Source of the DNA: Anaerohalosphaeraceae bacterium
GTDB taxonomy: Bacteria; Planctomycetota; Phycisphaerae; Sedimentisphaerales; Anaerohalosphaeraceae
Assembly (NCBI GenBank): GCA_963675155.1
Contig: OY775912.1
Coordinates: forward strand, 296,058-360,057
Reading direction: 5' to 3'
Length of the DNA stretch: 64,000 bases
Shown: positions 9,259 to 33,097 of the stretch, in pieces
Position numbering within the stretch: position 1 is the stretch's first letter
How the letters are laid out: the number at the start of each line of letters is the position of its first letter
Position numbers and translations under genes: made by a program
The notes under the pieces: model-generated
The model's input: the letters and a program-made list of their open reading frames with translations, nothing else
Told to the model about the DNA's origin: nothing
Databases searched by the model: none

Positions 9259-10554
9259 ATGAATAAAAAAAGATTTCATTATAAAATTGTATTCATCACC
9301 CTATTTTTGATAGCGGTTTCGTCTCATGGCTTTGCTCGCAGTCTACTCTGGAGAGATGAATTTGACGGCACTTCGCTTGACACAACAAAGTGGACTGTCG
9401 TGAATGCTGAAGATTGGTATGATTGCTGGTATGCACCGCATAATGTTGAAGTTTCCGAAGGGACGCTCAAATTACATTCACGGGAGCAATTGTATAACGG
9501 CAAGCACTGGACCGGAGCAAAGCTGGAAGGGAAATATCATCCTCAATATAAATACTTAGAAGCAAAGATCCGGCATTCTTTGCCTGATAGCCATATATGG
9601 TCGGCATGGTGGACAATCGGCTGGACCGGTACGACATGGCAATGGCCCCCGGAATTTGATATCTTCGAATTTGCGATACAATGGGAAACCACTCCTTTTC
9701 AAACCTATCATTGGGATAGAGGGTACGGGCACGAGATGGACGGTGAAATAACCGGACTTGACGAAACCGAGTGGCATACTTACGGAGTTTATTGGACGGC
9801 TGCACAATCGGCGGTTTTTTATGTGGATGGTGTGCGGTCCTATCAACCCTACGGACCGGCCGAAAGCGCCCAAATGCAGGCGTTACTGATTTTATCATCT
9901 TCTCCTAACAGAGATGACCACTACAGTGGCTGTTCTTTGGGAGATTTTGAGGTGGATTATGTGCGTGTGTATGACAGTCCGCCGGACCACGACATGTCGG
10001 TGACAAATCTGGCACTGAATAAACCCGTTCAGGTTTCATCATCTCAGTCCGGTCATGACGGCAGTTATGCTGTTGACGGAGATGCCGGTACCCGCTGGGC
10101 ATCTGACTGGAGCGATCCTCAGTTTATTGTTGTAGATCTGGGCCAAGAAACACCCTTTAGCATTGTCCGTCTCAATTGGGAAAACGCCTATGCCAGCCGG
10201 TTTCTGATTCAGGTTTCCAACGATAACTCGACCTGGACAACGGTTGTGAATGAACAAAATGGCTCCGTTGGAATTCGTGAATACTCCGTGGACGCTAACG
10301 CAAGGTACCTGAAAATTTTGGGGACCGAGCGAGGTACCGAATGGGGTTATTCATTGTATGAGGTCCAGATTTACCAATGCAGAAAATATGATCTGGCTTT
10401 TTTTGATTCAATGGCTTATAATTGGTTAGAAACCGATTGCGGTTCAAATAACTGTGAGGGCGCCGATATGGATTTTGATAACGATGTGGATATCATCGAC
10501 CTTCAGGAGTTGGCTTTTCAATGGCTAGGCCTCAACTGCTTCGGTAATTCATAG
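9259..10554 (+). CDS. GH16 family beta-glucanase (laminarinase-like) + F5/8 type C (discoidin/CBM32-like) domain + dockerin-like C-terminus
   Basis: Signal peptide. WRDEFDG start of GH16. Intact catalytic motif E-F-D-I-F-E (PPEFDIFEF). Discoidin signature (AVDGDAGTRWASDW...FIVVDLG). C-terminal DMDFDNDVDIIDLQELAFQWL. Confidence 0.8.
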   Translation: MNKKRFHYKIVFITLFLIAVSSHGFARSLLWRDEFDGTSLDTTKWTVVNAEDWYDCWYAPHNVEVSEGTLKLHSREQLYNGKHWTGAKLEGKYHPQYKYLEAKIRHSLPDSHIWSAWWTIGWTGTTWQWPPEFDIFEFAIQWETTPFQTYHWDRGYGHEMDGEITGLDETEWHTYGVYWTAAQSAVFYVDGVRSYQPYGPAESAQMQALLILSSSPNRDDHYSGCSLGDFEVDYVRVYDSPPDHDMSVTNLALNKPVQVSSSQSGHDGSYAVDGDAGTRWASDWSDPQFIVVDLGQETPFSIVRLNWENAYASRFLIQVSNDNSTWTTVVNEQNGSVGIREYSVDANARYLKILGTERGTEWGYSLYEVQIYQCRKYDLAFFDSMAYNWLETDCGSNNCEGADMDFDNDVDIIDLQELAFQWLGLNCFGNS

Positions 10555-10667
10555 GAACGGATTTCAACAAGAAATAAGTCGAATAACTCAAGAAACTGGA
10601 GCGTGGAAGTCTATTTTTGAATTTTCGAGATGATTTGGAATTGTTAAATGATTGGCAGGATTCAACC

Positions 10668-15434: not shown

Positions 15435-15594
15435 TCCGATTTTTTAAATCACTTAAATAATTTTAAATTTATAGACGAACCCTTTAGGTTATGGAAATCA
15501 GGCTTAACAGCGTAACTTGGCATATTCGAAAGGATAACTCCAGGTCAAAAGATATTGCGTCGTCTGATTCGCAGCTATTTGCGATGGTGTCATT

Positions 15595-18498
15595 ATGAAT
15601 CAACTGTTTTTCAAGATTTGTTTTTTCTTAGTCAGTACCATTTTGCTGGGCGATCTTCAGAGTGCGTCATTTTACACAAAGCGATTGGAAGACCCCGCCG
15701 CGGTCTATTTGAACAAGATAAATTTTCCCGTTCATGGCGATGGGGTGGGTGATGATTCGGTGGCGTTGCAGCAGGCGATTGATAAGGTTGCTTCCAGTAC
15801 CGGAGCGGGGGTCTTATTTATTCCGGAGGGAACCTATCGTCTCGCAAAGACCGTTTATATCTGGCCGGGGGTTCGTTTAATCGGTTATGGGGAGAAACGG
15901 CCGATTTTTACATTGGGTCCAAACACGCCGGGTTTTCAGGAGGGAATCGGTTACATGTTATTCTTTTCCGGGGGGCGGCGTGATGGGACTCCTCGAGACG
16001 GCAATCCCGGAACATTTTACAGTGCAATGAGCAATATTGACATCGAAATCGGGTCAGGAAATCCGGCGGCCGTTGGAATTCGGTTTCATGTTGCTCAGCA
16101 CTGCTACCTTTCTCATATGGACTTCCGGCTTGGTACGGCTAAGGCGGGATTAGAGGATATTGGCAACGAGGTCGAAGATCTCAGCTTCCACGGGGGCCAA
16201 TATGGCATTATCACCAGACGGTCAGCCCCCGGATGGCCCATCCTGTTAATCGATTGTACGTTCGAGGGGCAGAGCCGCTCGGCGATCAGTTCTGACGAAG
16301 CGGGATTGGCCGTAATACGACCTGTTTTTAAGAATGTTTCTGCCGCAGTCTCTATCGTTCCGAATAAGCCGGACGAGCTCTGGATCAGCGATGCCTTGCT
16401 GGAGAATATTTCCGGCCCGGCGATGGTTATCAGTAATGAGCACAATGCGAGAACCCAGATTAACATGCAAAATGCTATCTGCAAAAATGTTCCAACTCTC
16501 GCCCGTTTCCGCCAAAGCGGCAAGACTATCTCAGGGACCGGAACTGCATATCAAGTCAAGCAGTTCTCTCATGGATTGCATATCGCCGATCAGGTCGCAT
16601 CGCGGGAGATCAAGACCACATTTTCGGCTCGAGAAGTGACGACGTTTCCGACTCTGGTCGAATCGGATATTCCCGCCCTTCCCGATTGCGCCACATGGGT
16701 CAATGTCCGATCGCTGGGGGTCATGGGTGATAATCAAACGGACAATACGGCCGCACTGAAAAAGGCGATTGCCGTCCATCAAGTGCTTTATTTTCCGATG
16801 GGGTGGTATCGTGTCAGTGATACACTGAAACTCAGGCCGGATACGGTATTGATCGGGCTTAATCCTTCGGGCACGGTGATTAGCTTGTCAGAAGAGACAC
16901 CTGCATTTCAGGGGTCCGGCACGCCCAAACCAGTCATCGAAGCCCCGCAGGGAGGGGCGAATATTATCACGGGCATCGGTGTCTATACAGGTGCCGTCAA
17001 CCCTCGCGCCGCTGGTATCAAGTGGATGGCCGGAGCCAATTCCATGATAAACGATGTTCGCCTGCACGGCGGGCATGGCACGAAGATCCCGGGACAGGAT
17101 CGCTACGGCAGGCTGGGCAATCGGGATGCCTGGAATAGCCAGAATGCCAGCTTGTGGGTGACGGGCGGAGGCGGCGGAACGTTCAAAAACATCTGGACAC
17201 CCAGTCCTTACGCCAGTGCCGGCATGGAGATCTCCAATACGTCAACTCCCGGTCGGGTTTATGCGATGTCCATTGAACACCACGTTCGCAATGAGATGGT
17301 TATTCGCAATTGTTCCCAATGGCAATTCTACGCGCTGCAATTTGAGGAGGAACGGGAAGAAGGCCCCGAGGCTCTACCTTTAGAGATTGATAACGCGAGC
17401 AACCTTCTGTTTGCCAATATGTTTTTTTATCGTGTGATCAGCTCCTTTGTGCCTTTTCCCTATGCAGTGAAGATCAGCGACAGTCACGATATTCGGTTTC
17501 GTAATTTCCATTGCTACAGTAACAGTAAGGTTTCCTTTGACAGTGCCGTTTACGATGAAACGGTTGACGTCGAAGTGCGTGATGTTGAGTTGGCGGTATT
17601 GAATATGACCGGTGATTCCGTCCCGGAAGTGTCTGCGTCAGATTCGAGGATTCCTGCCAAAGGAGCCAAGGTGAAAAAGCTGGCCGATGGATTCCTGAAT
17701 ATTTCCAGTATTGCTGTTGACAGCAAGGGGGATGTTTATTTCTCTGACATTCGTCAAGGTTGCATTTACCGATGGTCGATTGAAAAAAAATGTGTCGAAC
17801 ACGTCCGTGATATTTCCCAGCAGCCGGTTCAATTGGCTTTTGACAAGGCAGACAATCTATTGGTTATTTCATATGAAGGCGACGGTACGGTATTGGCCTT
17901 CCGGCCGGATAATAAAAAGAGTGAGATAATTTCTCTGAAGCCCCAAGCGGCTGCATCACACCCGAAAATGACAGCAGTGCTTCCTGTCAATCGCTGGATG
18001 AGTGATGCTGCATTCATTCGAGATTCGATTGGGAAGAAACCGTTCCATTATATTTCGCCGGACGGCACAATGTTTATCCCTGCCGGCGAGGACTTTACGA
18101 CGGGCGCCAAGCAATGGGGCATCAAGGCATCGGACCTGATTCGAGCTTTCGGAATTTCCCCGGCTGTGTCAGGGCGACCCTTTTATGTCACCAATGAACT
18201 GGAGCTGAAAACATGGTCTTTCGATGTTGGACCTGATGGGACGCTTTCCAATCCAACGCTATTTGCTCAGGAAGGGGGTGAGTCTGTAACGGCCGATGAG
18301 CGGGGCAATGTCTACATTGCGGCCGGGCAAGTCTTCGTTTTTGATCCTTCCGGCAGACGCATGGAGACCCTCAATGTGCCCCAGCGTCCGATCTGTCTCG
18401 TTTTCGGAGGCAAGGATCGAAAAACACTGTTTATTACAACCCGGTCCTCCCTTTACAGTGCCAGTGGCCATTTTGCAGATGCGGATAAAATCCGATAA
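15595..18498 (+). CDS. secreted protein with two pectate-lyase-superfamily (right-handed beta-helix; GH55-like arrangement) domains fused to a C-terminal SMP-30/gluconolactonase/LRE-like beta-propeller
   Basis: Signal peptide. Two copies of the Pectate_lyase_3-type start motif (HGDGVGDDSVALQQAIDKVASSTGAGVLFIPEGTYRL and LGVMGDNQTDNTAALKKAIAVHQVLYFPMGWYRV). C-terminal SGL-like repeats (GDVYFSDIRQGCIYRW, GNVYIAAGQVFVFDPSGRRMETL, KTLFITT). Confidence 0.6.
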   Translation: MNQLFFKICFFLVSTILLGDLQSASFYTKRLEDPAAVYLNKINFPVHGDGVGDDSVALQQAIDKVASSTGAGVLFIPEGTYRLAKTVYIWPGVRLIGYGEKRPIFTLGPNTPGFQEGIGYMLFFSGGRRDGTPRDGNPGTFYSAMSNIDIEIGSGNPAAVGIRFHVAQHCYLSHMDFRLGTAKAGLEDIGNEVEDLSFHGGQYGIITRRSAPGWPILLIDCTFEGQSRSAISSDEAGLAVIRPVFKNVSAAVSIVPNKPDELWISDALLENISGPAMVISNEHNARTQINMQNAICKNVPTLARFRQSGKTISGTGTAYQVKQFSHGLHIADQVASREIKTTFSAREVTTFPTLVESDIPALPDCATWVNVRSLGVMGDNQTDNTAALKKAIAVHQVLYFPMGWYRVSDTLKLRPDTVLIGLNPSGTVISLSEETPAFQGSGTPKPVIEAPQGGANIITGIGVYTGAVNPRAAGIKWMAGANSMINDVRLHGGHGTKIPGQDRYGRLGNRDAWNSQNASLWVTGGGGGTFKNIWTPSPYASAGMEISNTSTPGRVYAMSIEHHVRNEMVIRNCSQWQFYALQFEEEREEGPEALPLEIDNASNLLFANMFFYRVISSFVPFPYAVKISDSHDIRFRNFHCYSNSKVSFDSAVYDETVDVEVRDVELAVLNMTGDSVPEVSASDSRIPAKGAKVKKLADGFLNISSIAVDSKGDVYFSDIRQGCIYRWSIEKKCVEHVRDISQQPVQLAFDKADNLLVISYEGDGTVLAFRPDNKKSEIISLKPQAAASHPKMTAVLPVNRWMSDAAFIRDSIGKKPFHYISPDGTMFIPAGEDFTTGAKQWGIKASDLIRAFGISPAVSGRPFYVTNELELKTWSFDVGPDGTLSNPTLFAQEGGESVTADERGNVYIAAGQVFVFDPSGRRMETLNVPQRPICLVFGGKDRKTLFITTRSSLYSASGHFADADKIR

Positions 18499-18519
18499 CG
18501 ATTCAGAAAGGAATACGGA

Positions 18520-19947
18520 ATGTTAAAAAAAGTATTGTTTATTATGGCGGGTTTGCTGATGATTGTTTCCGGCTGCGAAACGGATTCAAAAAAAATGGAA
18601 GAAGAAACAAAAATGATTCATGTTATTCTCACGGCTAAAGAAACCGGCGATCGGTTGACGACTAAAGAACCGATCACATTAAGTTCTGATGCAGCAATGC
18701 ATATTTCAGAGACGATTACAGTCGATGATTCAAAGACATATCAACGTATCGTTGGTTTTGGCGGTTCATTTACAGAAGCCAGTGCTTATACGCTGTCTAA
18801 GATGAGTGCTGACAAACGTGCTGAAGTGATTAAAGCCTACTTTGATCCGAAAGAGGGAATTGGTTACACCCTTTGTAGGACACATTTGAACAGTGCGGAC
18901 TTTTCGCTTGGCAACTATGCTTACTCTGAAGTTGAGGGGGATTTTGATCTTAAACACTTCGATATCTCCCGTGATAAAAAATGGCTTCTCCCGATGATTA
19001 AAGATGCGATGGCTGTCGAAGGTGCGAATTTCAAGCTGTTTTCGTCGCCATGGAGTCCGCCTGCGTGGATGAAAACAAATGGTCAGATGAACTACGGGGG
19101 ACAGCTTAAGCCGGAATGTCGTGATGTGTGGGCACGATATTATGCCAGATACATCAAGGAGTACGCCCAAGAAGGGATTGCAATCTGGGGGCTGACGGTT
19201 CAGAACGAGCCGGCGGCAACCCAAACATGGGACTCCTGTCTCTATTCAGCTGAAGAAGAAGGGGCCTTTGTGCGTGACCATCTGGGGCCAACCCTTGAAA
19301 AAGAAGGATTGGGTGATGTCAAGATCATTGTCTGGGATCATAATAAGGATATCATTTATGAACGTGCAGAACCGATCCTGTCCGACCCTGAGACAACAAA
19401 ATATGTCTGGGGAGTTGGGTTCCACTGGTATTCCGGCGACGAATTTGAAAATCTGGAAAAAGTCCACAATGCCTTTCCGGATAAACATCTTCTGTTTACC
19501 GAAGGCTGTCAGGAAGGTGGTGTCCGCCTGGGTGCGTGGGATCTTGGGGAGCGGTATGCACACGATATCATCGGTGATTTAAATAACTGGACTGTGGGCT
19601 GGGTTGATTGGAACATGGTTTTAAATGAAAGAGGCGGCCCTAACCACGTGGACAATCTTTGCGATGCACCCGTTATCGCTGATACGACTCGAAATGATCT
19701 GTATTACCAAAATTCCTTCTACTATCTGGGACATTTCAGTAAATATATCCGCCCAGACGCTGTTCGTGTTGCCAGTTCAGTAACCAAGGAGGCACTGGAA
19801 ACGACTGCCTTTAAAAATTCAGATGGGTCTATCGCTATCGTTGTGATGAATCGAACCGATGCAGAAATCCCATTCAATCTTAAGATTGACGGGCAAATAG
19901 CCGCTTGTTCGAGTCCGGCTCATTCGATCATAACCATGGTATATTAA
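18520..19947 (+). CDS. GH30 family glycoside hydrolase (glucosylceramidase/beta-1,6-glucanase-like) lipoprotein
   Basis: Lipobox-like MIVSGCE. GH30 blocks (FSSPWSPPAWMKTNG, LTVQNEPAA, LLFTEGCQEG). Confidence 0.8.
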   Translation: MLKKVLFIMAGLLMIVSGCETDSKKMEEETKMIHVILTAKETGDRLTTKEPITLSSDAAMHISETITVDDSKTYQRIVGFGGSFTEASAYTLSKMSADKRAEVIKAYFDPKEGIGYTLCRTHLNSADFSLGNYAYSEVEGDFDLKHFDISRDKKWLLPMIKDAMAVEGANFKLFSSPWSPPAWMKTNGQMNYGGQLKPECRDVWARYYARYIKEYAQEGIAIWGLTVQNEPAATQTWDSCLYSAEEEGAFVRDHLGPTLEKEGLGDVKIIVWDHNKDIIYERAEPILSDPETTKYVWGVGFHWYSGDEFENLEKVHNAFPDKHLLFTEGCQEGGVRLGAWDLGERYAHDIIGDLNNWTVGWVDWNMVLNERGGPNHVDNLCDAPVIADTTRNDLYYQNSFYYLGHFSKYIRPDAVRVASSVTKEALETTAFKNSDGSIAIVVMNRTDAEIPFNLKIDGQIAACSSPAHSIITMVY

Positions 19948-19992
19948 TCTTAAAGTAACAGTCAGTCGTCATTGTTTTTGAAAGGGCATCCA

Positions 19993-21522
19993 ATGTATAA
20001 AAAAGTCAATCTCGTCTTATTTTTTATTCTATTATCTTCGGTTTCATTGAAAGCAGATTATAAACTCATCTGGTCGGAGGAATTTGATCAGGCGAAAATT
20101 GACACCAAGGCATGGAAAGCTGAAACAAATCCAGGAGTTGTATACGATGCTCATCAGAAACAGTTTTACACTGATAAAGAAAGCAACAGCTTTATAAAAA
20201 ATGGAAATTTGGTCATCCGTGCCCAAAAAGAAGACTATGCGATCAATGAGTACACATCTGCCCGACTGAATACGTATGGCGCGTTTGGTTTGTGTTACGG
20301 AAAGATCGAGGCCCGGATCAAAACAGCAAGTGCAGACGGAGTTCAATGTAAACTCTTTATGCTTCCCGAAACACTGGAATACGGCGCTTGGGCTCGAAGC
20401 GGCCAGATTGATATCATGGAAACTCAGGGAGCCAATCCGGATCGCATAAAAGGCGGCATCTACCACGGCGGCCAAGGGCACTATAATAAGTACTCCGGTC
20501 GAGAATATTTATCGGAAGGTGTGGATTTCTCAGATGACTATCATGTCTATACGATCGAGTGGCAACCCTATGAAATACGATGGTTCATTGACGGAAAACT
20601 TTATGCCATGCAGAATCAATGGAGCAGTTTTTCTGCGGACTACCCGGCACCATTCGACAAGCGATTTTATCTAATATTAAGTGTTGCCGTTGCCGGCGAT
20701 ACAGATGACAGTCAACTCCCGGCTGAAATGAGTGTTGATTGGATTCGGGCCTATCAAATCGAAGGCGATAATCAGCCTCCTCGAATTAAAATCACTTCTC
20801 CGGCCAATAACGCAGCAGTCGATGCGGGAAATCTTCAGGTCGCTGTTAACGCAACAGATGCAGATAATAACCTTGAAAAAGTTGAATTTTACAATCATTA
20901 CGACTTATTGGGAGTTGCCACAGATGCTCCTTATAGTTTTACCTGGGATGTGCCCGATGGGTGCCATCTGCTCATCGCAAGAGCTGTTGACAGTTCCGGA
21001 TTCGGGTACAGCAACAGTGTTGAGATTGTGGCCGGGGTCGGTTGTCCGCCCACACCTTATCACGGCAGTCCCGTTAACCTGCCCGGAAGGATAGAAGCCG
21101 AGGATTTTGACACAAGCCCAAAAGAAAAAGCTTACTGGGACTTTGATGAAAGCAACAACGGCGGCGCTTACCGTAAAACCGGTGTTGACATTCAGGATTG
21201 CCTTGAAGGCGGCTACAATCTCGCTTGGATCGAATCGGGGGAATGGGTGGAATATACGGTAAACGTCAAAAAAGACGGCATGTATGACATCATATGTCGG
21301 ACCAGCTCACCGTTAGACGGGGGCAAGCTGCATGTAGAGTTTGACGGAGAGAATAAAACAGGGACCCTGCAGGTTGTAAATACAGGTGACTGGCAGAATT
21401 ACACACATCTGATCAAAAAAAATGTGCCTCTCAAAGCAGGTGTCCGGAAGATGAAAGTTGTCATAGAAAACGGTGGTTTAAATCTCAACTACATTGAAGT
21501 GAACGCTTCAATGTCTCCTTGA
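19993..21522 (+). CDS. GH16-like domain with Gln at the catalytic nucleophile position (QIDIME) + Ig-like domains + C-terminal CBM6/35-like module
   Basis: Signal peptide. LIWSEEFDQ GH16 start. Motif G-Q-I-D-I-M-E instead of G-E-I-D-I-M-E (codon cag at 20409-20411). C-terminal CBM6-like (GRIEAEDFD...GGYNLAWIESGEWVEYTVNV...LNLNYIEV). Confidence 0.75.
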   Translation: MYKKVNLVLFFILLSSVSLKADYKLIWSEEFDQAKIDTKAWKAETNPGVVYDAHQKQFYTDKESNSFIKNGNLVIRAQKEDYAINEYTSARLNTYGAFGLCYGKIEARIKTASADGVQCKLFMLPETLEYGAWARSGQIDIMETQGANPDRIKGGIYHGGQGHYNKYSGREYLSEGVDFSDDYHVYTIEWQPYEIRWFIDGKLYAMQNQWSSFSADYPAPFDKRFYLILSVAVAGDTDDSQLPAEMSVDWIRAYQIEGDNQPPRIKITSPANNAAVDAGNLQVAVNATDADNNLEKVEFYNHYDLLGVATDAPYSFTWDVPDGCHLLIARAVDSSGFGYSNSVEIVAGVGCPPTPYHGSPVNLPGRIEAEDFDTSPKEKAYWDFDESNNGGAYRKTGVDIQDCLEGGYNLAWIESGEWVEYTVNVKKDGMYDIICRTSSPLDGGKLHVEFDGENKTGTLQVVNTGDWQNYTHLIKKNVPLKAGVRKMKVVIENGGLNLNYIEVNASMSP

Positions 21523-21634
21523 CCGGGATAATTTCTGAATTTTGTGCGGATAATTATCTTGCCAAGATTTTGTTCTGTCATATGATTTGAATTCATCGGT
21601 TGTCTCGGGAAATTGTTTAATCAATCAGGGAGAG

Positions 21635-23992
21635 ATGATGAAGGCATGCAATATTTTGACGGTATCGGTTTTGGCGGCGACGCTTACACTGGCCCCGGCG
21701 TATGGCCAAACCATTCTAATCGATTTTGGTAACGCTTCTTCGTGGCGTGGAGTTGACACGCCGAGTCCCGATGAAAACGGAAACTCCTGGAACTGCGTGT
21801 GGAGTGCCGCTTACTATCCCAACTTAATTGACATTGACGGAAATGTTACGCCCGTCGACTTTGGTTTTTCTTCTGCCGGCGGAACCGACAGCTATAACAG
21901 TCCTGCAGGTGTCACTTCTGATCCCGTTACTCAGGCAATGATTGACGCGACGGACATCAATGCCGCAGCCCTGGGCAACCTGGGTGTCAATGAGGCGGCA
22001 ATGGACTTCTACGATTCGTCGACATTTGAGATTCAAGGGTTGGATCCGACAAAAACCTATGATCTGACTTTTTTTGGATCACACAAGTACAGCGACGATG
22101 ACACGACGGTCTATTCGGTCTACACCGACAATACGCTTACCACTCTGGTCGACTTGGCCAGCCTTAATGTTCAGCAAAGCGGAAGTCCCTCGCTGCACAA
22201 TCGGGATATGGTTGTGACGATCACCGGACTGTCCCCGCAGGCTGCCAATAGCCTGTATATCAGGTTTACCGGCTCAAACGGAAATTTAGGCTATCTCAAC
22301 TGCATGCAGATCGAGGAAGTCTCCGGAGACATGACAACCAATCCCCTTCCCGGTGATGGTGAGACCGTCGCAATGCTCACAACGAATTTGATATGGAACC
22401 AGCCCAGTGAGTATTCTCCCATGAAGTATGTTCTCCGTTTTCGTGCCAATAATTCCAACTGGCTTGATACGGCCAACACAACTGTGGTGGACCCCGTGGT
22501 CGATCTTGATCTTGACGGCGATGTGTCCACAACCGAAGCTGCGGTGCCGGTCGCACTGGATTACAATACTGTCTATTATTGGAAAGTTACTGCATTTGAG
22601 TCCGCCGCTCCGTCTCCCATCGAACATGACGGGCCGGTCTGGTCGTTCACGACCGAAACAGACACTTCCAGCTCCCCAGTTCGCAAAAAGATAATGGCTC
22701 ATTACATGCCGTGGTATCAGTCGCAACCCATCAGCGGATACTGGGGCTGGCACTGGCATATGAACCATTTCAGTCCGCCGACCACCATTGCATCGCACTA
22801 CCATCCCCTCTTTGGGCCCTACGACTCCAGTGACCCGCACGTCTTAGCGTCTCAGTCGCTTTTGATGAAGTTCGGGGGAATCGACGGGATGATTGCCGAT
22901 TGGTACGGCATTGAGGATTTTTGGGATTACGGCCGCGTAAGGGACGCTACGAATGCCTTTGTCCCCTATATCAAGCAGGCCCAACTAGAATTTTCCATCT
23001 GCTATGAAGACCAGACCGTTGGCCATATGCTCAACAATGGTCACTTTGCAGACAGAAATGAGGCCGTTGCACATGGTGTAGAGGTTATGGAGTGGCTGGA
23101 CAACCACTATTTTAGTGACTCCTCGTACCTGAAAATAGACGGCAGGCCGGTCTTGCTTTGTTTTGGCCCGCAATTTTTTACATACAGTGAATGGGAGCTG
23201 TTGTTTGAGGCACCGGTTTCGCCGCCGCACTTTTTCCCGCTGAAGTATCACACCGCGCCAAACACCGGTGAATTTGACTGGCCGTCTCCGGGTGCCGGCA
23301 CCGAAGGGATTACCTCGAATCTCAACGCTTTTTACGACAGGGCTGCTTCTTTGGGATGGGATCATTACGTTGGCGGTGTCTTTCCCCGGTTTCATGATAT
23401 TTACGAAGAGGCCGGAATAGGGTCTTCTTACGGCTATATTGACGATCAGGATACGGCTACTTTCACCCAAACACTGGAAAGAGCAATCTTAAGCGATGCC
23501 GATATTGTTCAAATTGTGACGTGGAACGATTACGGAGAAGGCACGGTGATTGAGCCAACTGAGGAAGACAGCTATACGTACCTGGAAATTATTCAACAGT
23601 ATCGAACCCGTTATATTGATCCGAATTTTCCCTACACGGCTGCGGACCTGAGACTTCCCACAAGACTGTATGCGATGCGGCAGACCTACCAAGCCGATCC
23701 CGTAAAAATGACTCAGCTTGATTCCGTTGAAGCCTGTTTATTTGCCGACCAGCTGGCACAGGCTGAAATGCTGATGAATCAGATTGATTGCGACACTGTC
23801 ATTGTAGGAGATTTTAATGCCGACTGCAGGGTGAGCCTCTTCGACTTTGAGCTGTTATCCGATGCATGGCTCAGCGGGGCCGCTGATCCGAATTGGCGTC
23901 CCGAGGTTGACATCAGCGACCCCAAAGATGGTAAGATTGACATTCTGGATTTGCGTCAATTTGCTGAAAATTGGCTGGAAATCAATTTATGA
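21635..23992 (+). CDS. secreted protein: novel ~220-aa N-terminal domain (paralog family A) + Ig-like domain + GH99/GH71-like glycosidase domain + dockerin-like C-terminus
   Basis: Signal peptide MMKACNILTVSVLAATLTLAPAYG. N-domain shared with 26609 and 27500. GH99-like start pattern AHYMPWYQSQPISGYWGWHWHMNHFSPP...FGPYDSSDPHV...GIDGMIADWYG. C-terminal GDFNADCRVSLFDFELLSDAWL and DPKDGKIDILDLRQFAENWLE. Confidence 0.55.
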   Translation: MMKACNILTVSVLAATLTLAPAYGQTILIDFGNASSWRGVDTPSPDENGNSWNCVWSAAYYPNLIDIDGNVTPVDFGFSSAGGTDSYNSPAGVTSDPVTQAMIDATDINAAALGNLGVNEAAMDFYDSSTFEIQGLDPTKTYDLTFFGSHKYSDDDTTVYSVYTDNTLTTLVDLASLNVQQSGSPSLHNRDMVVTITGLSPQAANSLYIRFTGSNGNLGYLNCMQIEEVSGDMTTNPLPGDGETVAMLTTNLIWNQPSEYSPMKYVLRFRANNSNWLDTANTTVVDPVVDLDLDGDVSTTEAAVPVALDYNTVYYWKVTAFESAAPSPIEHDGPVWSFTTETDTSSSPVRKKIMAHYMPWYQSQPISGYWGWHWHMNHFSPPTTIASHYHPLFGPYDSSDPHVLASQSLLMKFGGIDGMIADWYGIEDFWDYGRVRDATNAFVPYIKQAQLEFSICYEDQTVGHMLNNGHFADRNEAVAHGVEVMEWLDNHYFSDSSYLKIDGRPVLLCFGPQFFTYSEWELLFEAPVSPPHFFPLKYHTAPNTGEFDWPSPGAGTEGITSNLNAFYDRAASLGWDHYVGGVFPRFHDIYEEAGIGSSYGYIDDQDTATFTQTLERAILSDADIVQIVTWNDYGEGTVIEPTEEDSYTYLEIIQQYRTRYIDPNFPYTAADLRLPTRLYAMRQTYQADPVKMTQLDSVEACLFADQLAQAEMLMNQIDCDTVIVGDFNADCRVSLFDFELLSDAWLSGAADPNWRPEVDISDPKDGKIDILDLRQFAENWLEINL

Positions 23993-24194
23993 TGAGAATC
24001 TCCTGATTGCGATAAGGTGTGTCAGTTCATTTCTTTATAGTACTCGATTATTGGCGTCTTGTTTCTAATGTGAGGCCTGAGATGGGATAGAGAAGGTAAA
24101 GTCGAAAAATTATGAAATAATTTAAAAAACGCAGGGTGTCAAATCTGACAAATCTGGAATATCTATATGAAGTACCTTTTTCCTGAGGAGGATT

Positions 24195-24746
24195 ATGGGT
24201 CATATAAATAATTCAACCAGCACCGAAGAACGTTCGAAAAGGTTCATCTCTTTGTTGATGCCTGTCCAGCGAAAAGTGTATGCTTATGTCGCTTATCACG
24301 TTCCCGATAAGAATAACTCCGATGACCTTTTTCAAGAAGTCGTCGCAACCCTATTAACCAAGTTTGACGATTACGAAGAAGGTACGAGCTTCCTGAAGTG
24401 GGCCATCACTGTTGCCAAATATAAGATTCTTTCTTTTCACCGAGATAACAAACGCATGAAGATTGTGTTTGATGAAGCCGACATGGACCAAATTTATATC
24501 GAAGCGCAGGAAAAGATTGAGTCGCTGGAGGAAGAGTCAAAGGCATTAACAGGATGCTTAGAGAAATTATCCGATAAGCAGCGAAGCTTGGTGAATTATC
24601 GATACGGCTATGAAATGACCTACCGTCAAATTGCAAAAAAACTCAATATTTCAATGCAATCGACATACAGAGCAATTTATCGTATCCATGGATCCCTCCT
24701 GAAATGTATTCATCTGTCATTGAAGTTCAGAGGTGTCAATGAATAA
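24195..24746 (+). CDS. ECF-type sigma-70 family sigma factor (paralog of 5329..5853)
   Basis: Region 2 (DDLFQEVVATLLTKFDDYEE...LKWAITVAKYKILSFHRDNKRMK). Region 4 (LVNYRYGYEMTYRQIAKKLNISMQSTYRAIYRIHGSL). RBS gaggagg. Overlaps the downstream anti-sigma. Confidence 0.85.
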   Translation: MGHINNSTSTEERSKRFISLLMPVQRKVYAYVAYHVPDKNNSDDLFQEVVATLLTKFDDYEEGTSFLKWAITVAKYKILSFHRDNKRMKIVFDEADMDQIYIEAQEKIESLEEESKALTGCLEKLSDKQRSLVNYRYGYEMTYRQIAKKLNISMQSTYRAIYRIHGSLLKCIHLSLKFRGVNE

Positions 24747-26466
24747 TAACGACTCATTTTTAGACAATTATCCCGAGTTCTTCCCTCTCATTGCAGACAG
24801 AGAGATGACCGATGAAGAGTTTGAAGTGGTTAAAGCTTTACTGAAAACCAATCAAGCGGCCCGAAACGCTTATTTTGACATGATTAACCTTGAAGTCTTG
24901 TTACGGGACTCAAAAGAGCTGGGGGAAGGATTTGAGGGAAACCCCTGTATTGACATGGATTTTTGGCGACTTCTGGCTCACGAAGAAGAAACAAAACCAG
25001 CCATTGAAATCCCCCCCCAACAGCCGCCCCGGGAGTTGATACAAAAGGTTATTTGGCCTCAGAAAAATAAATATAAAGTGAGTAAATTCAGCATTTTTGG
25101 AATTGCGATGAATGTTGCGGCGATCCTTTTTGTCGTTCTGTTTTTGAAGTTTGCTCCCCAGCGATTTCACGCCTTTGAGGTTGCAACTCTGGTTGATCAA
25201 TTGAATGTCAAATGGGCTCATCCCGATAAAATCCGGGGAAAAGGAAGCCGTTTATGGACCGATGAAGGGCTGTTGGATTTGAAACAGGGAATGGTTAAAA
25301 TCCGATATGACGACGGCGTCGACGTTGTGATTGAAGGACCGGCATTATTTGAAATTAACCAATCGCAGGTTTATCTTGAATACGGACGTTTATACGGCTG
25401 TGTTTCGAAGTCGGGCTTGGGATTTAGAGTGGAAACGCCCACGTCACAGTTTTTGGATCATGGAACTGAATTCGGCGTATTGGCTAATATTGACGGCTCC
25501 TCGGAATTGCATGTCATGGAAGGTAAAGTTGAATTATTTACCGGTTCCAGAGGCCAATTCAAAAGCTGTCAGATGGTGCCTGAAAAAAAGGCAATAAAGT
25601 ATAATGCGACGATCGATCAAGTCAACAAGATCCCTATTCAAAAAGAGGTCTTCGCTCGGTCTTTCAATTCCGAAAGCAAGATGGTCTGGCGAGGCAAGAT
25701 GCATCTCAATCTGGCCGATATCATCGGTGGCGGCAATGGTTTTGGAGATGGGGCAATCGATGCAGGAATCGATGCGACCACCGGAAAAACGCTGGACCGT
25801 CTTTTGAATTATAATCCATTTGAAGGTTCTGCGGGATATAAGGCGGTCAGCAGCAGTCCGTATATTGACGGTGTTTTTATTCCGGGTGCCGGTGACGGTC
25901 CAATCCCCATTACGTCGGAAGGATCGTATACGGCGATATTCCCGCATACAAGCGGAGCATTGTGGGGCTATATATTCAATGGGGCATTTCATCAGGGAAC
26001 TCCTGCAACCCAAACTCCACTGGAATTAGCGGGTGTTGTTTTTGGGACGCCGGATAATCCTGCGATCACCATCCATTCGAATCAGGGGGTTACGTTCGAC
26101 CTTTCTGAAATACGAAAGAGTCTGCCGGCGTTGTCGATAACAGGCTTTCGGTCGCTTGCAGGTATTTCACAAACAGTGCAGGATGTTTTGGAGAAAAAAG
26201 AAGGTGGGGCTACTGATATTTTGCCGGAATCTCAAAAGGGTTTTAACGCTGACAGGTCAAACGTTGAATTTTGGGTTTTTCTGGACGGAAAACAGGCGTT
26301 TTGCCAGAAAATATCCAGTGCTGACGAGGCTGCTGAACTGGAGATACCCATCGCAGATAATGTTCGATTTCTGACATTGGCGGTGACAGAATCCGATGAC
26401 TCCGTTTCGTATGACTGGGCGTTATTCGGCCGACCGGAGTTGATTTTGGAGTTGGCCCGGCAGTAG
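24733..26466 (+). CDS. FecR-family transmembrane anti-sigma factor (paralog of 5853..7541)
   Basis: TM helix FSIFGIAMNVAAILFVVLFL. FecR block (GFRVETPTSQFLDHGTEFGVLANIDGSSELHVMEGKVELF). Conserved C-terminal sensor domain (VEFWVFLDGKQ...VRFLTLAVTESDD). Confidence 0.75.
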   Translation: MSMNNNDSFLDNYPEFFPLIADREMTDEEFEVVKALLKTNQAARNAYFDMINLEVLLRDSKELGEGFEGNPCIDMDFWRLLAHEEETKPAIEIPPQQPPRELIQKVIWPQKNKYKVSKFSIFGIAMNVAAILFVVLFLKFAPQRFHAFEVATLVDQLNVKWAHPDKIRGKGSRLWTDEGLLDLKQGMVKIRYDDGVDVVIEGPALFEINQSQVYLEYGRLYGCVSKSGLGFRVETPTSQFLDHGTEFGVLANIDGSSELHVMEGKVELFTGSRGQFKSCQMVPEKKAIKYNATIDQVNKIPIQKEVFARSFNSESKMVWRGKMHLNLADIIGGGNGFGDGAIDAGIDATTGKTLDRLLNYNPFEGSAGYKAVSSSPYIDGVFIPGAGDGPIPITSEGSYTAIFPHTSGALWGYIFNGAFHQGTPATQTPLELAGVVFGTPDNPAITIHSNQGVTFDLSEIRKSLPALSITGFRSLAGISQTVQDVLEKKEGGATDILPESQKGFNADRSNVEFWVFLDGKQAFCQKISSADEAAELEIPIADNVRFLTLAVTESDDSVSYDWALFGRPELILELARQ

Positions 26467-30649: not shown

Positions 30650-30786
30650 GGTATATATATCCGTATATAGAATTATAATATATTATAAGTATAAGTGTCG
30701 GCTCATTTATGGTCAATGCTTAATTGATAATTTTTATGCCATTCTAAATAAAGGAGTTATGTTCATTTTTGCTTTTATTTAAAAGT

Positions 30787-30802
30787 CTGGCACGCAGGTT
30801 GT
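30787..30802 (+). promoter_or_regulatory. sigma-54 (-24/-12)-type promoter candidate, oriented toward the tRNA-like element / SPFH / tRNA array / rtcAB
   Basis: TGGCACG-CAGG-TTGTA versus consensus TGGCACG-N4-TTGCW; the -12 element is GT instead of GC. Lies ~140 bp from the rtcR start, on the opposite strand. Confidence 0.45.
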
Positions 30803-31000
30803 ACATAGTAGATCAAGTAATTAACGCTCTTATGAAAATTAAAGATGAAGTTTCCGCCGGGCCAGCGGCATACCAGTGACAGCCATGCTGTTTCATTGCG
30901 TATGTACCGTGAGTGGGTTCTAACGAAGGTGGAACTATTCGAGCGGCGAGAATTGGAAAATGCGACCAATGTCAATTCTTTCGATTCCCGCATCGGATCC

Positions 31001-31085
31001 CAATGGTTAGCTCAGAGGGTAGAGCATCGGGCCGTTAACCCGAAGTCGTGGGTTCGATTCCCACACCGACCGCCGCGAGAGCGGC
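31001..31085 (+). ncRNA. tRNA-like element with canonical D-arm, anticodon arm (GTT, Asn-type) and T-arm but no good 7-bp acceptor stem, followed by a GNRA-capped hairpin
   Basis: TAGCTCAGAGGGTAGAGC D-arm. TCGGG-CCGTTAA-CCCGA anticodon arm. GTGGG-TTCGATT-CCCAC T-arm. The 5' strand CAATGGT pairs only 4/7 with the 3' strand ACCGACC. Then GCCGC-GAGA-GCGGC. Confidence 0.4.
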
Positions 31086-31448
31086 TCAAAGAAGGGCTCG
31101 AAGGAAACATTTGGTCTATCTGGCAGTTGACAGGTTTTTCTGACTCACCTCGTTGGCCTGTCAACACCATTTGTAAACGCTCTGCAGTATGCGGATACCG
31201 CTTACTTCTGGCCAAGAGCAAAGACGTCGATGACGAACAAGCAATGACGGATTTCGCTGGTAATAGGAAATCTGAAATTGCGACCTTCCGAATCGCCTCT
31301 TACCTTGTTCAAAGTGAACTTAAGCATGCTCCGCGTGAAAGATGGGGCAATAGTCAAATGTTTCCTGAAAGCCTCTTATGACAAATGCCCGGCGATAAAT
31401 GAAAGAATAAATACAAGGTGAGAAAATAGAATAAAAAGGAGAATTAAA

Positions 31449-32552: not shown

Positions 32553-32618
32553 GCGGCAGAAGAAGGGGCAGGCCGGAAGTTTCACCGGTCTGTCCCGCGC
32601 AAAAAAGTAAAGGTTGAA

Positions 32619-32692: not shown

Positions 32693-32697
32693 AATGA

Positions 32698-32772: not shown

Positions 32773-32774
32773 CT

Positions 32775-32847: not shown

Positions 32848-32867
32848 CTTTGAAAAGAGAATGTTGA

Positions 32868-32938: not shown

Positions 32939-32941
32939 ATC

Positions 32942-33012: not shown

Positions 33013-33018
33013 TTAATC

Positions 33019-33092: not shown

Positions 33093-33097
33093 GTAAA

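What the first reader, a model, noticed from the sequence alone, without database searches (positions are those of the whole stretch)
20395..20430. GH16 domain with Gln replacing the catalytic nucleophile Glu (GQIDIME)
The GH16 signature is E-[ILV]-D-[IV]-x-E; the first Glu is the nucleophile. Here the codon is cag (Q) in an otherwise well-conserved GH16 domain (LIWSEEFD..., ...QIDIMETQG) that also carries a C-terminal CBM6-like module. The neighbouring GH16 (9259..10554) has the intact EFDIFE. A natural E->Q nucleophile variant would be hydrolytically inactive: a lectin-like pseudo-enzyme, or possibly a transglycosylating or binding protein. Alternatively it is a single-base sequencing error (cag vs gag).
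Basis: partly seen in the sequence, partly recalled or inferred. Interest (0 to 1): 0.5.

Follow-up and report, generated by a model that had tools for sequence, protein, structure and literature searches.

The report
Conserved nucleophile-less GH16 glucanase-like module
A secreted protein in a planctomycete beta-glucan gene cluster carries a laminarinase-like domain whose key catalytic glutamate is replaced by glutamine; the change is inherited and strongly conserved across a small clade, so the domain is most likely a sugar-binding module that no longer cuts.

Summary
ORF 19972/19993..21522 (+) encodes signal peptide–GH16–Big_7–CBM6, and the GH16 motif reads G-Q-I-D-I-M-E. The Gln codon CAG is at 20404-20406. 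All 60 aligned canonical homologues, and 110 of the 120 nearest database hits, have Glu there.

It is not a sequencing error. At least 14 distinct relatives (62-88% identical) carry SGQID[IVL]MET. They come from Sedimentisphaerales/Anaerohalosphaeraceae and other Planctomycetota MAGs and metagenomes. All seven available DNAs use CAG while flanking codons vary synonymously. The domain's dN/dS is 0.03-0.11 with dS of about 1 or more.

The clade also lost both -1 subsite tryptophans (WPAxW became (Q/R)CKxF), the Asp-pairing His, a conserved Asn and the GGNWPG loop.

The nearest outgroup, P0126, has the same architecture and shares these losses. It keeps the nucleophile but has Arg in place of the acid/base Glu.

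Synteny with a GH30 gene is conserved. In two relatives the module is fused to a GH5 exo-beta-1,3-glucanase-like domain.

Best reading: a GH16_3-derived, non-hydrolytic glycan-binding module (confidence about 0.55). Main rival: a non-canonical catalyst. This is a new bacterial variant of a known kind, of moderate interest.

The parts
19993..21522 (+). Gene for the GH16(Gln)-Big_7-CBM6 protein. The likely start is ATG 19993 (509 aa); the mechanical ORF begins at TTG 19972 (516 aa). Residue numbers in this report count from 19972.
   Evidence: ORF list. The 509-aa product from ATG 19993 is on record in the protein collection, from a 4.9 Mb contig. An RBS-like GAAAGGG lies upstream.
19993..20055 (+). 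Signal-peptide-like N-terminus MYKKVNLVLFFILLSSVSLKA, which implies an exported protein.
   Evidence: Read from the translation. Equivalent hydrophobic N-termini occur in all full-length clade members. No signal-peptide predictor was run.
20053..20757 (+). GH16_3-like beta-jelly-roll domain (residues 28-262).
   Evidence: Pfam PF00722. PDB laminarinases at 1e-40. AF2 model pLDDT 92.7. Foldseek top hits are all GH16_3 laminarinases, TM 0.8-0.85.
20395..20430 (+). Former catalytic strand RSGQIDIMETQG: Gln145 (20404-20406) replaces the nucleophile Glu; Asp147 (20410-20412) and the acid/base Glu150 (20419-20421) are retained.
   Evidence: The strand is invariant in the clade. This region has the lowest dN in the protein (0.044 against 0.114 for the domain).
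20338..20370 (+). Remodelled neighbouring strand GVQCKLFMLPE, replacing the canonical G(I/L)WPA(F/I)WMLPx. Both -1 subsite Trp are lost (W125 to Q here, R in the rest of the clade; W129 to F), and Ala127 is now Lys.
   Evidence: Column counts: W 59/60, P 57/60, A 60/60 and W 60/60 in canonical homologues. The role of the two Trp as the -1 platform is from PMC4606783 and PMC5595797. The segment is a beta-strand in the model.
20449..20484 (+). KGGIYHGGQGHY. The canonical GTxH strand has lost Thr162 (to Gly) and His164 (to Tyr/Phe), and is followed by a clade-specific conserved loop.
   Evidence: T 57/60 and H 59/60 in canonical homologues. This His hydrogen-bonds the catalytic Asp in ULam111 (PMC5595797).
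20692..20709 (+). Site of a 5-residue deletion that removes the canonical GGNWPGxPD loop and its Trp (positive-subsite Trp).
   Evidence: The Trp232(TmLam)/Phe212(ULam111) role at +1 is from PMC5595797.
20779..20958 (+). Big_7 Ig-like domain.
   Evidence: Pfam PF17957, E=3.4e-15.
21175..21504 (+). CBM6/CBM35-type carbohydrate-binding module.
   Evidence: Pfam PF03422, E=6.8e-19. PDB relatives include the ZgLamC CBM6 (5fui, from a GH16 endo-1,3-beta-glucanase) and CBM6 of CtXyl5A and CmCBM6.
18520..19947 (+). GH30 gene immediately upstream, 24-45 nt from the GH16(Gln) gene. It is immediately upstream in 4 of the related loci and adjacent, on the opposite strand, in 2 more (L006, L007).
   Evidence: Pfam PF02055, 3e-87. 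Closest solved proteins are GH30_1-type (SrfJ 2wnw 2e-103, glucosylceramidase 2e-86). Synteny.
15595..18498 (+). Two-beta-helix protein with a C-terminal SMP-30/gluconolactonase-like propeller, weakly GH55-like. Same strand, 21 nt upstream of the GH30 gene.
   Evidence: Pfam. Weak PDB matches to GH55 beta-1,3-glucanases, 1e-7.
9259..10554 (+). Second GH16 of the cluster, with an intact EFDIFE motif and an F5/8 type C domain. It is the candidate real endo-glucanase of the locus.
21587..23992 (+). Downstream gene on the same strand: 801 aa with weak GH71/GH99/WbsX-like matches, all below or near the Pfam thresholds.
   Evidence: No PDB sequence match.

Best explanation
The Gln is real and inherited. 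Gene 19993..21522 belongs to a small clade of exported signal peptide-GH16-Big_7-CBM6 proteins. The clade is found in Sedimentisphaerales/Anaerohalosphaeraceae-type Planctomycetota and descends from canonical GH16_3 laminarinases with the same architecture.

In this clade the catalytic cleft has been rebuilt. The nucleophile Glu is Gln. Both -1 subsite Trp are gone. The His that pairs with the catalytic Asp is Tyr/Phe. The +1 Trp loop is deleted. Basic residues (Lys127, Arg/Gln125, Arg142, Lys63, Lys160) have been added.

Such a domain cannot run the canonical retaining double-displacement reaction. It most likely works as a non-hydrolytic glycan-binding (lectin/CBM-like) module. Together with its CBM6 it would hold a beta-glucan-type substrate for the true hydrolases of the same operon or the same polypeptide: GH30, the intact GH16, the GH55-like protein, and in relatives a fused or adjacent GH5 exo-beta-1,3-glucanase-like domain.

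What is shown: the substitution, its conservation, purifying selection, the co-occurring active-site losses, the sister lineage that lost the other catalytic Glu, and the synteny and fusions.

What is inferred: loss of hydrolysis (from mutant data on homologues), binding as the retained function, and beta-glucan as the ligand.
For: (1) Position. The Gln aligns with the nucleophile Glu of solved laminarinases, and that column is Glu in 60/60 canonical homologues.

(2) Not an error. SGQID[IVL]MET occurs in 9 database proteins and in 6 further loci from independent MAGs and metagenomes. The codon is CAG in all 7 DNAs while neighbouring codons vary synonymously.

(3) Selection. Pairwise dN/dS of the domain is 0.03-0.11 with dS of about 1 or more. 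dN of the GH16 module (0.114) is about the same as Big_7 (0.123) and CBM6 (0.098). The ex-catalytic strand region is the most constrained part, with dN 0.044 and 67-80% invariant positions against 58% overall.

(4) Other active-site residues lost: N60, W125, P126, A127, W129, T162, H164, N237, G241 and the W244 loop. Their roles at -1, at +1 and in pairing the Asp are described in PMC4606783 and PMC5595797.

(5) Experimental precedent. P. furiosus LamA E170Q and E175Q show no measurable activity on laminarin but still bind beta-1,3-glucan (PMC13301891). PDB 9voo carries an engineered-looking SGQIDIME version of the 3atg glucanase.

(6) Sister lineage. P0126 is 53% identical, has the same architecture, and its locus also has a GH16, a GH30 and a LacI gene. 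It shares W125 to Q, A127 to K, H164 to F and the loop shortening. It keeps Glu145 but has Arg (codon AGG) at the acid/base position. The NJ tree gives the Q clade 100% bootstrap and Q clade plus P0126 100%; the next sister is the canonical P0128. Two related lineages losing different catalytic Glu residues is what relaxed catalytic constraint predicts.

(7) Context. GH30 is immediately upstream in the window, L001, L002, L003 and L004, and adjacent in L006 and L007. In L001 and L002 the module is fused to GH5 (exo-beta-1,3-glucanase-like, with NEP and TEF motifs present) plus DUF1349. In L007 that GH5-DUF1349 is a separate adjacent gene.
Against: No binding or activity data exist for any member.

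Asp147 and the acid/base Glu150 are strictly conserved, and the ex-active-site is the most constrained region. That fits ligand binding but fits retained chemistry equally well.

The loss of both -1 Trp and of Asn60 removes residues that canonical laminarinases use to bind glucan, so laminarin may not be the ligand.

The gain of several basic residues in the cleft is not explained by a simple loss of function. It hints at an anionic ligand, or at internal salt bridges.

Fusion to GH5 does not discriminate, because multi-catalytic enzymes are common.

P0126 is a single sequence.

I had no model coordinates, so which residues face the cleft is inferred from strand periodicity.
Confidence: 0.55

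Rival explanations
1. The module is still a catalyst but uses a non-canonical mechanism, a different substrate, or both. Possibilities: Asp147 or another carboxylate (for example the clade-conserved Glu133) acts as the nucleophile; substrate-assisted catalysis on a 2-acetamido sugar, with Asp147/Gln145 orienting the acetamido group and Glu150 as acid/base; or an exogenous anion such as phosphate attacks where the Glu carboxylate used to be (an inverting phosphorylase, in effect a natural glycosynthase), with the new Lys/Arg residues binding the anion or an anionic glycan.
For: Asp147 and Glu150 are invariant, and the ex-catalytic strand has the lowest dN in the protein. There is a coordinated, conserved remodelling rather than random decay, with several new basic residues on cleft-facing strand positions (K127, R125 in most members, R142, K63, K160). 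A long stem branch is followed by tight conservation.
Against: The E-to-Q nucleophile mutant of a homologous laminarinase is dead (PMC13301891). The -1 sugar platform (two Trp) and the Asp-pairing His are gone. The sister P0126 has lost the acid/base Glu instead. All members have a signal peptide and a CBM6, which is unusual for phosphorylases. No GlcNAc-metabolism or sulfatase genes occur in the window cluster or in loci L001-L007. To my knowledge no GH16 with such a mechanism is known, and the literature searches found none.
Confidence: 0.25
2. The GH16-like module is a structural scaffold or spacer with no ligand site of its own. The new Lys/Arg residues would pair with Asp147/Glu150 and fill the former cleft, and all sugar binding would be done by the CBM6.
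For: Loss of the aromatic platform residues needed for sugar stacking. Gain of basic residues next to retained acidic ones on adjacent strands. Rv0315 is a precedent for a GH16 protein that binds no glucan (PMC4606783).
Against: The cleft region is the most conserved part of the whole protein, with dN 2.6-fold below the domain mean. W140, R98, H191 and W197, which line the canonical cleft, are retained. A mere spacer would not be expected to keep dN/dS below 0.1 over 233 residues.
Confidence: 0.12
3. Single-base sequencing error (gag read as cag), or a recently inactivated, decaying pseudogene.
For: None beyond the a priori possibility. One relative (L007) has frameshifts in this gene, probably long-read assembly errors.
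Against: CAG is found in seven independent assemblies and Gln in at least 14 distinct proteins. The ORF is intact at 509 aa. dN/dS is 0.03-0.11 at saturating dS. About ten co-varying active-site changes are shared by the clade.
Confidence: 0.02

Closest known systems
[quoted passage not shown] Thermotoga TmLam (3AZX/4DFS) and the modular ZgLamC (GH16-CBM6, 4CRQ/5FUI)
   Same: Same fold (Foldseek TM 0.8-0.85, 31-36% identity). Same beta-bulge motif spacing x-I-D-I-M-E. Retains Asp, the acid/base Glu, Arg98, Trp140, His191 and Trp197. GH16+CBM6 modularity. Lies in a beta-glucan gene cluster.
   Different: The nucleophile Glu is Gln. The WPAxW Trp pair, the conserved His, Asn60 and the GGNWPG loop are lost. 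Lys/Arg are gained in the cleft. Canonical hydrolysis is therefore not expected.
Engineered nucleophile or acid/base E-to-Q mutants of GH16 laminarinases (P. furiosus LamA E170Q/E175Q; PDB 9voo SGQIDIME)
   Same: Identical substitution at the identical position. The mutants are inactive but bind beta-1,3-glucan and are used as lectin-like probes (PMC13301891).
   Different: Those are laboratory point mutants in an otherwise intact active site. Here the change is natural and clade-wide and comes with a rebuilt cleft, so the ligand specificity may differ.
Non-catalytic GH16 homologues of invertebrates (beta-GRP/GNBP/LGBP within GH16_4)
   Same: GH16 fold with mutated catalytic residues. They are described as non-catalytic binding proteins and cannot be separated from the active GH16_4 beta-1,3-glucanases by sequence networks or phylogeny (Viborg et al. 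2019, PMC6827312).
   Different: Those are metazoan immune pattern-recognition proteins in subfamily GH16_4. This is a bacterial GH16_3 derivative in a catabolic operon, with CBM6, and is sometimes fused to an active GH5.
Rv0315 of Mycobacterium tuberculosis (GH16_9), an inactive beta-1,3-glucanase homologue
   Same: A bacterial GH16 protein with no detectable glucanase activity, attributed to loss of substrate-binding residues (PMC4606783).
   Different: Rv0315 keeps both catalytic Glu and the -1 Trp pair but has lost the -2/-3 subsites. The protein here is the reverse: the nucleophile and the -1 Trp pair are lost, while R98 and W140 (-2/-3) are retained.
GH18 chitinase-like lectins (chi-lectins such as YKL-40) (from my own knowledge, not tested here)
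   Same: The same evolutionary route: a glycosidase fold that keeps its cleft and loses a catalytic carboxylate to become a binding protein.
   Different: Different fold and family. The substitution there is at the acid/base residue. Eukaryotic.

Membership tests
Glycoside hydrolase family 16 (sequence/fold family) | Beta-jelly-roll fold and a significant match to the GH16 profile | tested here: met
   PF00722 at 80.2 bits against a cut-off of 22. AF2 pLDDT 92.7. All top Foldseek hits are GH16.
Glycoside hydrolase family 16 (as an active retaining enzyme) | Catalytic motif E-x-D-x-(x)-E with the first Glu as nucleophile | tested here: not met
   The motif is Q-I-D-I-M-E. The column is Glu in 60/60 canonical homologues.
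Glycoside hydrolase family 16 (as an active retaining enzyme) | Hydrophobic -1 platform formed by the two Trp of WPAxW, and the His next to the catalytic strand | tested here: not met
   W125 to Q/R, W129 to F/L, H164 to Y/F. Their roles are from PMC4606783 and PMC5595797.
Glycoside hydrolase family 16 (as an active retaining enzyme) | Measured hydrolytic or transglycosylating activity | not testable with these tools
   Needs a recombinant protein assay.
GH16 subfamily 3 (laminarinase subfamily), by descent | Closest relatives and tree position among GH16_3 members; beta-bulge (six-residue) motif spacing | tested here: met
   Best PDB and Foldseek hits are GH16_3 laminarinases. The NJ tree nests the clade among canonical laminarinase-like sequences, with P0128 as the next sister. 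No CAZy subfamily HMM was available, so the assignment rests on nearest neighbours.
CBM6 carbohydrate-binding module (C-terminal part) | Significant match to the CBM6 profile and to solved CBM6 modules | tested here: met
   PF03422 at 68.8 bits against a cut-off of 28.9. PDB CBM6 hits 5fui, 1uxz and 2y8k. Ligand-binding residues were not examined.
Non-catalytic GH16-like glycan-binding proteins (pseudo-enzymes) | GH16 fold with catalytic residue(s) replaced, maintained by purifying selection | tested here: met
Non-catalytic GH16-like glycan-binding proteins (pseudo-enzymes) | Demonstrated glycan binding without turnover | not testable with these tools
   Supported only by analogy with the PfLamA E-to-Q mutants (PMC13301891).
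Invertebrate beta-GRP/GNBP (GH16_4 non-catalytic homologues) | Metazoan origin, GH16_4 affiliation, role in immune recognition | tested here: not met
   Relatives are all bacterial (Planctomycetota MAGs). Nearest neighbours are GH16_3. The genomic context is catabolic.

The most novel reading that the evidence does not exclude
The GH16 jelly-roll has been repurposed, in this planctomycete clade, into a catalyst that needs no enzymic nucleophile. One version is an inverting phosphorylase, a natural glycosynthase, in which phosphate or another anion occupies the space vacated by the Glu-to-Gln change and is held by the newly acquired Lys127/Arg125/Arg142. Another version is a substrate-assisted or Asp147-nucleophile enzyme acting on an anionic or N-acetylated glycan. 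Either would be a new reaction mechanism in clan GH-B.
Probability: 0.1. Interest if true: 0.8.

Novelty: new variant of a known kind. Interest (0 to 1): 0.4.

Why it matters
Automated annotation names every member of this clade as a glycoside hydrolase family 16 protein or beta-glucanase. If the module does not hydrolyse, laminarin- and beta-glucan-degrading potential is over-counted in Sedimentisphaerales and similar sediment Planctomycetota.

Biologically, it would be a bacterial, catabolic counterpart of the invertebrate beta-glucan recognition proteins: an enzyme turned into a substrate-capture module within its own operon, and sometimes on the same polypeptide as an active GH5. That bears on how planctomycetes, which lack SusD-type binding proteins, hold polysaccharides.

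It also offers natural sequences for beta-glucan probes like the engineered E-to-Q laminarinases.

If the rival reading is right instead, it would reveal new chemistry on the GH16 scaffold.

Tried and rejected
Sequencing error and pseudogene were rejected on comparative grounds.

I looked for an alternative catalytic motif elsewhere in the domain. There is none: the alignment to solved structures is collinear over residues 28-262.

A paper on glycoside phosphorylases came up in the literature search, but its 'GH16' hits were GH161/GH162 word-start matches and a citation of the subfamily paper. It gives no GH16 phosphorylase precedent.

Searches for 'GH16 pseudoenzyme', 'GH16 lacks the catalytic ... 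laminarin' and 'GH16-like glycan-binding' found no description of a bacterial nucleophile-less GH16 clade.

The second homologue search, seeded with P0126, found no close relatives of P0126, so it remains a singleton.

The promoter/terminator scan of 15300-24300 gave counts at chance level, so co-transcription is inferred only from the short same-strand gaps.

An exact look-up of the window protein's contig returned nothing, so the source organism was not identified beyond its relatives' taxonomy.

No model coordinates are exposed. Salt bridges, cleft shape and electrostatics could therefore not be measured, and cleft-facing assignments rest on strand periodicity and homology.

The downstream 801-aa protein has no PDB sequence match. 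The GH55 assignment of 15595-18498 is weak.
Full report
**The observation**

Window 20395-20430 reads cga agc ggc cag att gat atc atg gaa act cag gga, which translates to R-S-G-Q-I-D-I-M-E-T-Q-G in the frame of ORF 19972..21522 on the + strand.

The likely start is ATG 19993. It is preceded by GAAAGGG, and the 509-aa product from it is on record in the protein collection, from a 4.9 Mb contig. Residue numbers below count from 19972.

Pfam gives Glyco_hydro_16 (residues 71-258, 1.7e-22), Big_7 (270-329) and CBM_6/CBM_35 (402-511). The N-terminus MYKKVNLVLFFILLSSVSLKA looks like a Sec signal peptide; this was read by eye and no predictor was run.

The best solved relatives are GH16_3 laminarinases: Thermotoga 3azx/4dfs at 1e-40, then 3atg, 3iln, 2hyk and 2vy0. 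The alignments are collinear over residues 28-262 and put the Gln on the Glu of GEIDIME.

An AlphaFold model of the domain is confident (pLDDT 92.7, pTM 0.90). Its 30 best Foldseek matches are all GH16 enzymes, mostly GH16_3 laminarinases, with TM about 0.8-0.85.

**It is not an error**

A search of 5.8 billion proteins with the GH16 domain found a tight group, P0001-P0008, P0074 and P0079, at 72-88% identity. Their sources are NCBI Planctomycetota MAGs, ENA and JGI. After that group there is a gap down to about 43% identity. Every member that covers the motif has SGQID[IV]MET.

Of the 120 best hits, 110 have Glu at this position, 9 have Gln (all from this group) and 1 is a fragment without the motif.

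Scans of genome and metagenome collections returned five loci with DNA. L001 is an Anaerohalosphaeraceae MAG. L002 is a MAG labelled Pirellulales. L003 is a Sedimentisphaerales MAG. L004 and L005 are metagenome contigs. A sixth locus, L007, came from the contig look-up for P0074.

All seven DNAs, including the window, use CAG for this Gln. The flanking codons vary synonymously: CGA/CGC/CGT, GGC/GGT, ATT/ATC, GAT/GAC and ACT/ACG/ACC/ACA.

Pairwise Nei-Gojobori dN/dS over the 233-codon domain is 0.03-0.11, with dS between about 1 and 4, so synonymous sites are saturated. The Gln is therefore ancestral to a clade and maintained by selection.

Anaerohalosphaeraceae belong to Sedimentisphaerales, Phycisphaerae, Planctomycetota.

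**The domain is not "otherwise well conserved"**

I compared six clade members column by column with 60 canonical homologues. The clade differs at the following positions, each at least 95% conserved in the canonical set:

| Position | Canonical residue (count of 60) | Q clade |
|---|---|---|
| 60 | Asn (60) | Ala/Ser (Ser only in L004) |
| 125 | Trp (59) | Arg (Gln in the window) |
| 126 | Pro (57) | Cys |
| 127 | Ala (60) | Lys |
| 129 | Trp (60) | Phe/Leu |
| 145 | Glu (60) | Gln |
| 162 | Thr (57) | Gly |
| 164 | His (59) | Tyr/Phe |
| 237 | Asn (59) | Ser |
| 241 | Gly (59) | Ala/Asp |

In addition, five residues of the GGNWPGxPD loop, including its Trp, are deleted.

The literature gives these residues clear roles. 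The two Trp of WPAxW form the hydrophobic platform of subsite -1 (ZgLamA Trp238/Trp242, ULam111 Trp98/Trp102). The His hydrogen-bonds the catalytic Asp (ULam111 His137-Asp120). The loop Trp sits at +1 (TmLam Trp232). These roles are from PMC4606783 and PMC5595797. The sequence spacing between these residues in ULam111 matches the window protein exactly: 98/102/113/118/137 against 125/129/140/145/164.

Residues retained in the clade are Arg98, Trp140 (subsites -2/-3), Asp147, Glu150 (the acid/base), His191 and Trp197.

In the model, residues 124-132, 145-152 and 155-166 are beta-strands. By strand periodicity, Lys127 should face the cleft between the former Trp positions.

**The former active site is the most constrained part of the protein**

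Across seven full-length domains, 58% of positions are invariant. Over residues 135-170 (YGAWxRSGQIDIMETQG...KGGIxHGGQGHY) the figure is 67-80%.

Mean dN by region, among the window, L001, L002 and L003, is as follows:

| Region | Mean dN |
|---|---|
| GH16 module | 0.114 |
| Big_7 plus linker | 0.123 |
| CBM6 | 0.098 |
| Catalytic-strand region | 0.044 |

dS in the catalytic-strand region is about 1. The cleft is therefore being used for something, whether binding or chemistry.

**Where the clade comes from**

An exhaustive HMMER search of 1.84 billion cluster representatives found only one intermediate relative, P0126. It is 513 aa, 53% identical and has the same GH16-Big_7-CBM6 architecture.

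P0126 shares Trp125 to Gln, Ala127 to Lys, His164 to Phe and a shortened loop. It keeps the nucleophile Glu but reads GEIDIFR, with Arg (codon AGG, at least two changes from GAR) at the acid/base position. Its locus, L006, also holds another GH16, a GH30 and a LacI regulator.

In a neighbour-joining tree with 100 bootstraps, the Q clade has 100% support and the Q clade plus P0126 has 100%. The next sister, at 52%, is P0128, a canonical GEIDILE/WPAFW/GGHMPGNPD enzyme with the same three-module architecture.

The simplest history is this. A GH16_3-Big_7-CBM6 laminarinase lost its -1 platform and its His. The two daughter lineages then each lost a different catalytic Glu. That is the pattern expected once catalysis is no longer under selection while the fold and cleft still are. 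P0126 is a single sequence, and the follow-up search found no close relatives of it.

Degenerate motifs also occur sporadically elsewhere among the nearest representatives. P0131 has a second GH16 domain reading GQIDLAN, next to an intact first domain. P0243 reads GEIDITN. These are a few cases against 157 canonical motifs.

**Genomic context**

In the window the gene lies in a same-strand run:

- ECF sigma factor and FecR anti-sigma (5329-7541)
- an unknown protein (7665-9032)
- the intact GH16 with an F5/8 type C domain (9259-10554)
- a 1605-aa CotH/LTD protein (10617-15434)
- a two-beta-helix, weakly GH55-like protein with an SMP-30-type propeller (15595-18498)
- GH30 (18520-19947)
- the GH16(Gln) gene
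- an 801-aa protein with weak GH71/GH99/WbsX-like matches (21587-23992)

The gaps are 21, 24-45 and 64 nt. The consensus promoter/terminator scan was uninformative.

The GH30 is closest to GH30_1-type enzymes: SrfJ at 2e-103 and glucosylceramidase at 2e-86, against 4e-58 for the GH30_3 endo-1,6-glucanase 5ngk.

The order MFS_2 sugar transporter, GH30, GH16(Gln) is conserved in L001-L003. GH30 followed by GH16(Gln) is also seen in L004. A CotH/LTD giant and a LacI regulator are nearby in L001 and L002.

In L001 and L002 the protein continues after the CBM6 into a GH5 domain plus DUF1349, for 1126 aa in total. The closest solved relatives of that GH5 are exo-beta-1,3-glucanases and glucan 1,3-beta-glucosidases. 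Its NEP and TEF catalytic motifs can be seen in the translation. In L007 the GH5-DUF1349 is a separate gene next to the GH16(Gln) gene.

Everything around the module therefore points to beta-glucan processing. No sulfatase or GlcNAc-catabolic genes were seen.

**Mechanism**

The canonical GH16 reaction is a retaining double displacement. The first Glu of the motif attacks C1 and the last Glu acts as acid/base.

For a close homologue, P. furiosus LamA (a PDB hit of this domain at 8.5e-35), the E170Q and E175Q mutants showed no measurable activity on laminarin but still bound beta-1,3-glucan, and one of them is used as a detection probe (PMC13301891). PDB entry 9voo looks like an engineered SGQIDIME version of the 3atg glucanase.

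With the nucleophile, the -1 platform and the His all missing, canonical hydrolysis by this protein is very unlikely; I put that at about 0.85.

My best explanation, at confidence about 0.55, is that the module is a non-hydrolytic glycan-binding unit. With the CBM6 it would hold a beta-glucan-type substrate for the real hydrolases of the operon, or for the fused GH5 in relatives. The loss of a different catalytic Glu in the sister lineage is the strongest argument for this reading.

**What keeps the rivals alive**

Asp147 and Glu150 are invariant. The remodelling is coordinated and adds several basic residues: Lys127, Arg125 in most members, Arg142, Lys63 and Lys160. The residues that normally stack the -1 glucose are gone, so the ligand may not be plain laminarin.

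There are three rival readings:

- **Non-canonical catalyst (about 0.25).** A different nucleophile such as Asp147 or the clade-conserved Glu133; substrate-assisted catalysis; or anion-dependent (phosphorolytic) cleavage. The signal peptide and CBM6 argue against a phosphorylase, and the absence of GlcNAc genes argues against the substrate-assisted version.
- **Inert scaffold (about 0.12).** The cleft would be closed by salt bridges, with all sugar binding done by the CBM6.
- **Error or pseudogene (about 0.02).**

None of the first two can be separated without coordinates or experiments.

**Comparison with what is known**

GH16 homologues with mutated catalytic residues that act as binding proteins are known, but in metazoan GH16_4, where they cannot be separated from the active enzymes by sequence networks (PMC6827312).

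A bacterial inactive GH16, Rv0315, is known. It keeps both Glu and the -1 Trp pair, and it lost the -2/-3 subsites instead (PMC4606783).

I found no description of a bacterial GH16_3-derived clade with a Gln nucleophile. The searchable library is limited to open-access papers and preprints.

I therefore rate this as a new variant of a known kind. It is real, conserved and mis-annotated as a beta-glucanase in public records, but it is an instance of a familiar evolutionary route from enzyme to lectin. Interest is 0.4.

Noticed in passing
window 44458-62602 (+), plus 36921-38705 (-): This looks like a beta-1,2-glucan (sophoro-oligosaccharide) utilisation locus. It has a LacI regulator, four PF10091 'Glycoamylase' (GH144/162-type) proteins (two of them with PA14 domains), a SOGP-type GH94 1,2-beta-oligoglucan phosphorylase (46997-50398), an MFS_2 transporter, a LamG/PKD protein and a GH2.
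   Followed up: no
window 29057-35704: An RNA-repair operon: the sigma-54 activator RtcR (29057-30649, - strand) diverges from an unknown protein, an SPFH/Band 7 protein, RtcA cyclase (33255-34274) and RtcB ligase (34271-35704).
   Followed up: no
L001 7917-11297 and L002 7917-11297; L007 7516-9492: In two relatives the GH16(Gln)-Big_7-CBM6 protein is fused to a GH5 (exo-beta-1,3-glucanase-like) domain plus DUF1349, giving 1126 aa. In a third relative the GH5-DUF1349 is a separate adjacent gene. The window has no GH5-DUF1349 gene among the ORFs scanned.
   Followed up: partly
L006 2694-4235 (protein P0126): The nearest outgroup of the Gln clade keeps the nucleophile Glu but has Arg (codon AGG) at the acid/base position (GEIDIFR). 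It shares the loss of Trp125, Ala127 and His164. It is a singleton in the databases searched.
   Followed up: partly
proteins P0131 and P0243 (representative library): Other degenerate GH16_3 motifs exist. P0131 has two GH16 domains, the first canonical (GEIDIVE) and the second GQIDLAN, with both Glu replaced. P0243 reads GEIDITN. These are a few cases among about 160 domain motifs in the 149 nearest representatives.
   Followed up: no
window 524-3892, 3822-4865 and 10617-15434; L001 11294-16033 (-): Very large CotH-kinase-like plus Lamin-tail-domain (LTD) proteins sit in the same cluster. A 1579-1581-aa orthologue lies directly next to the GH16(Gln) gene in L001 and L002. Their role in a glucan locus is unexplained.
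   Followed up: no
window 5329-7541 and 24195-26466: Two ECF sigma factor / FecR-type anti-sigma pairs bracket the glucanase cluster. The second anti-sigma carries a C-terminal NPCBM/NEW2 carbohydrate-binding domain, which suggests glycan-sensing regulation.
   Followed up: no
L007 9400-11050: The GH16(Gln) gene of this ENA contig is split over three reading frames, although the SGQIDLMET motif (codon CAG) is present. This is either long-read assembly frameshifts or a genuine pseudogene in that genome.
   Followed up: partly
window 10440-10554 and 23800-23992: The C-termini of the intact GH16 (…DMDFDNDVDIIDLQELAFQWLG…) and of the 801-aa downstream protein (…DFNADCRVSLFDFELL…DGKIDILDLRQFAENWL…) look like dockerin-type Ca-binding repeats by eye. 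Pfam reported no dockerin at the thresholds used.
   Followed up: no
window residues 62, 125 and 241 of the GH16(Gln) protein (nt 20155-20157, 20344-20346, 20692-20694): The window protein departs from its own clade at three cleft-related positions. It has Gln62 where about half the members have Glu, Gln125 where all others have Arg, and Ala241 where the others have Asp.
   Followed up: no
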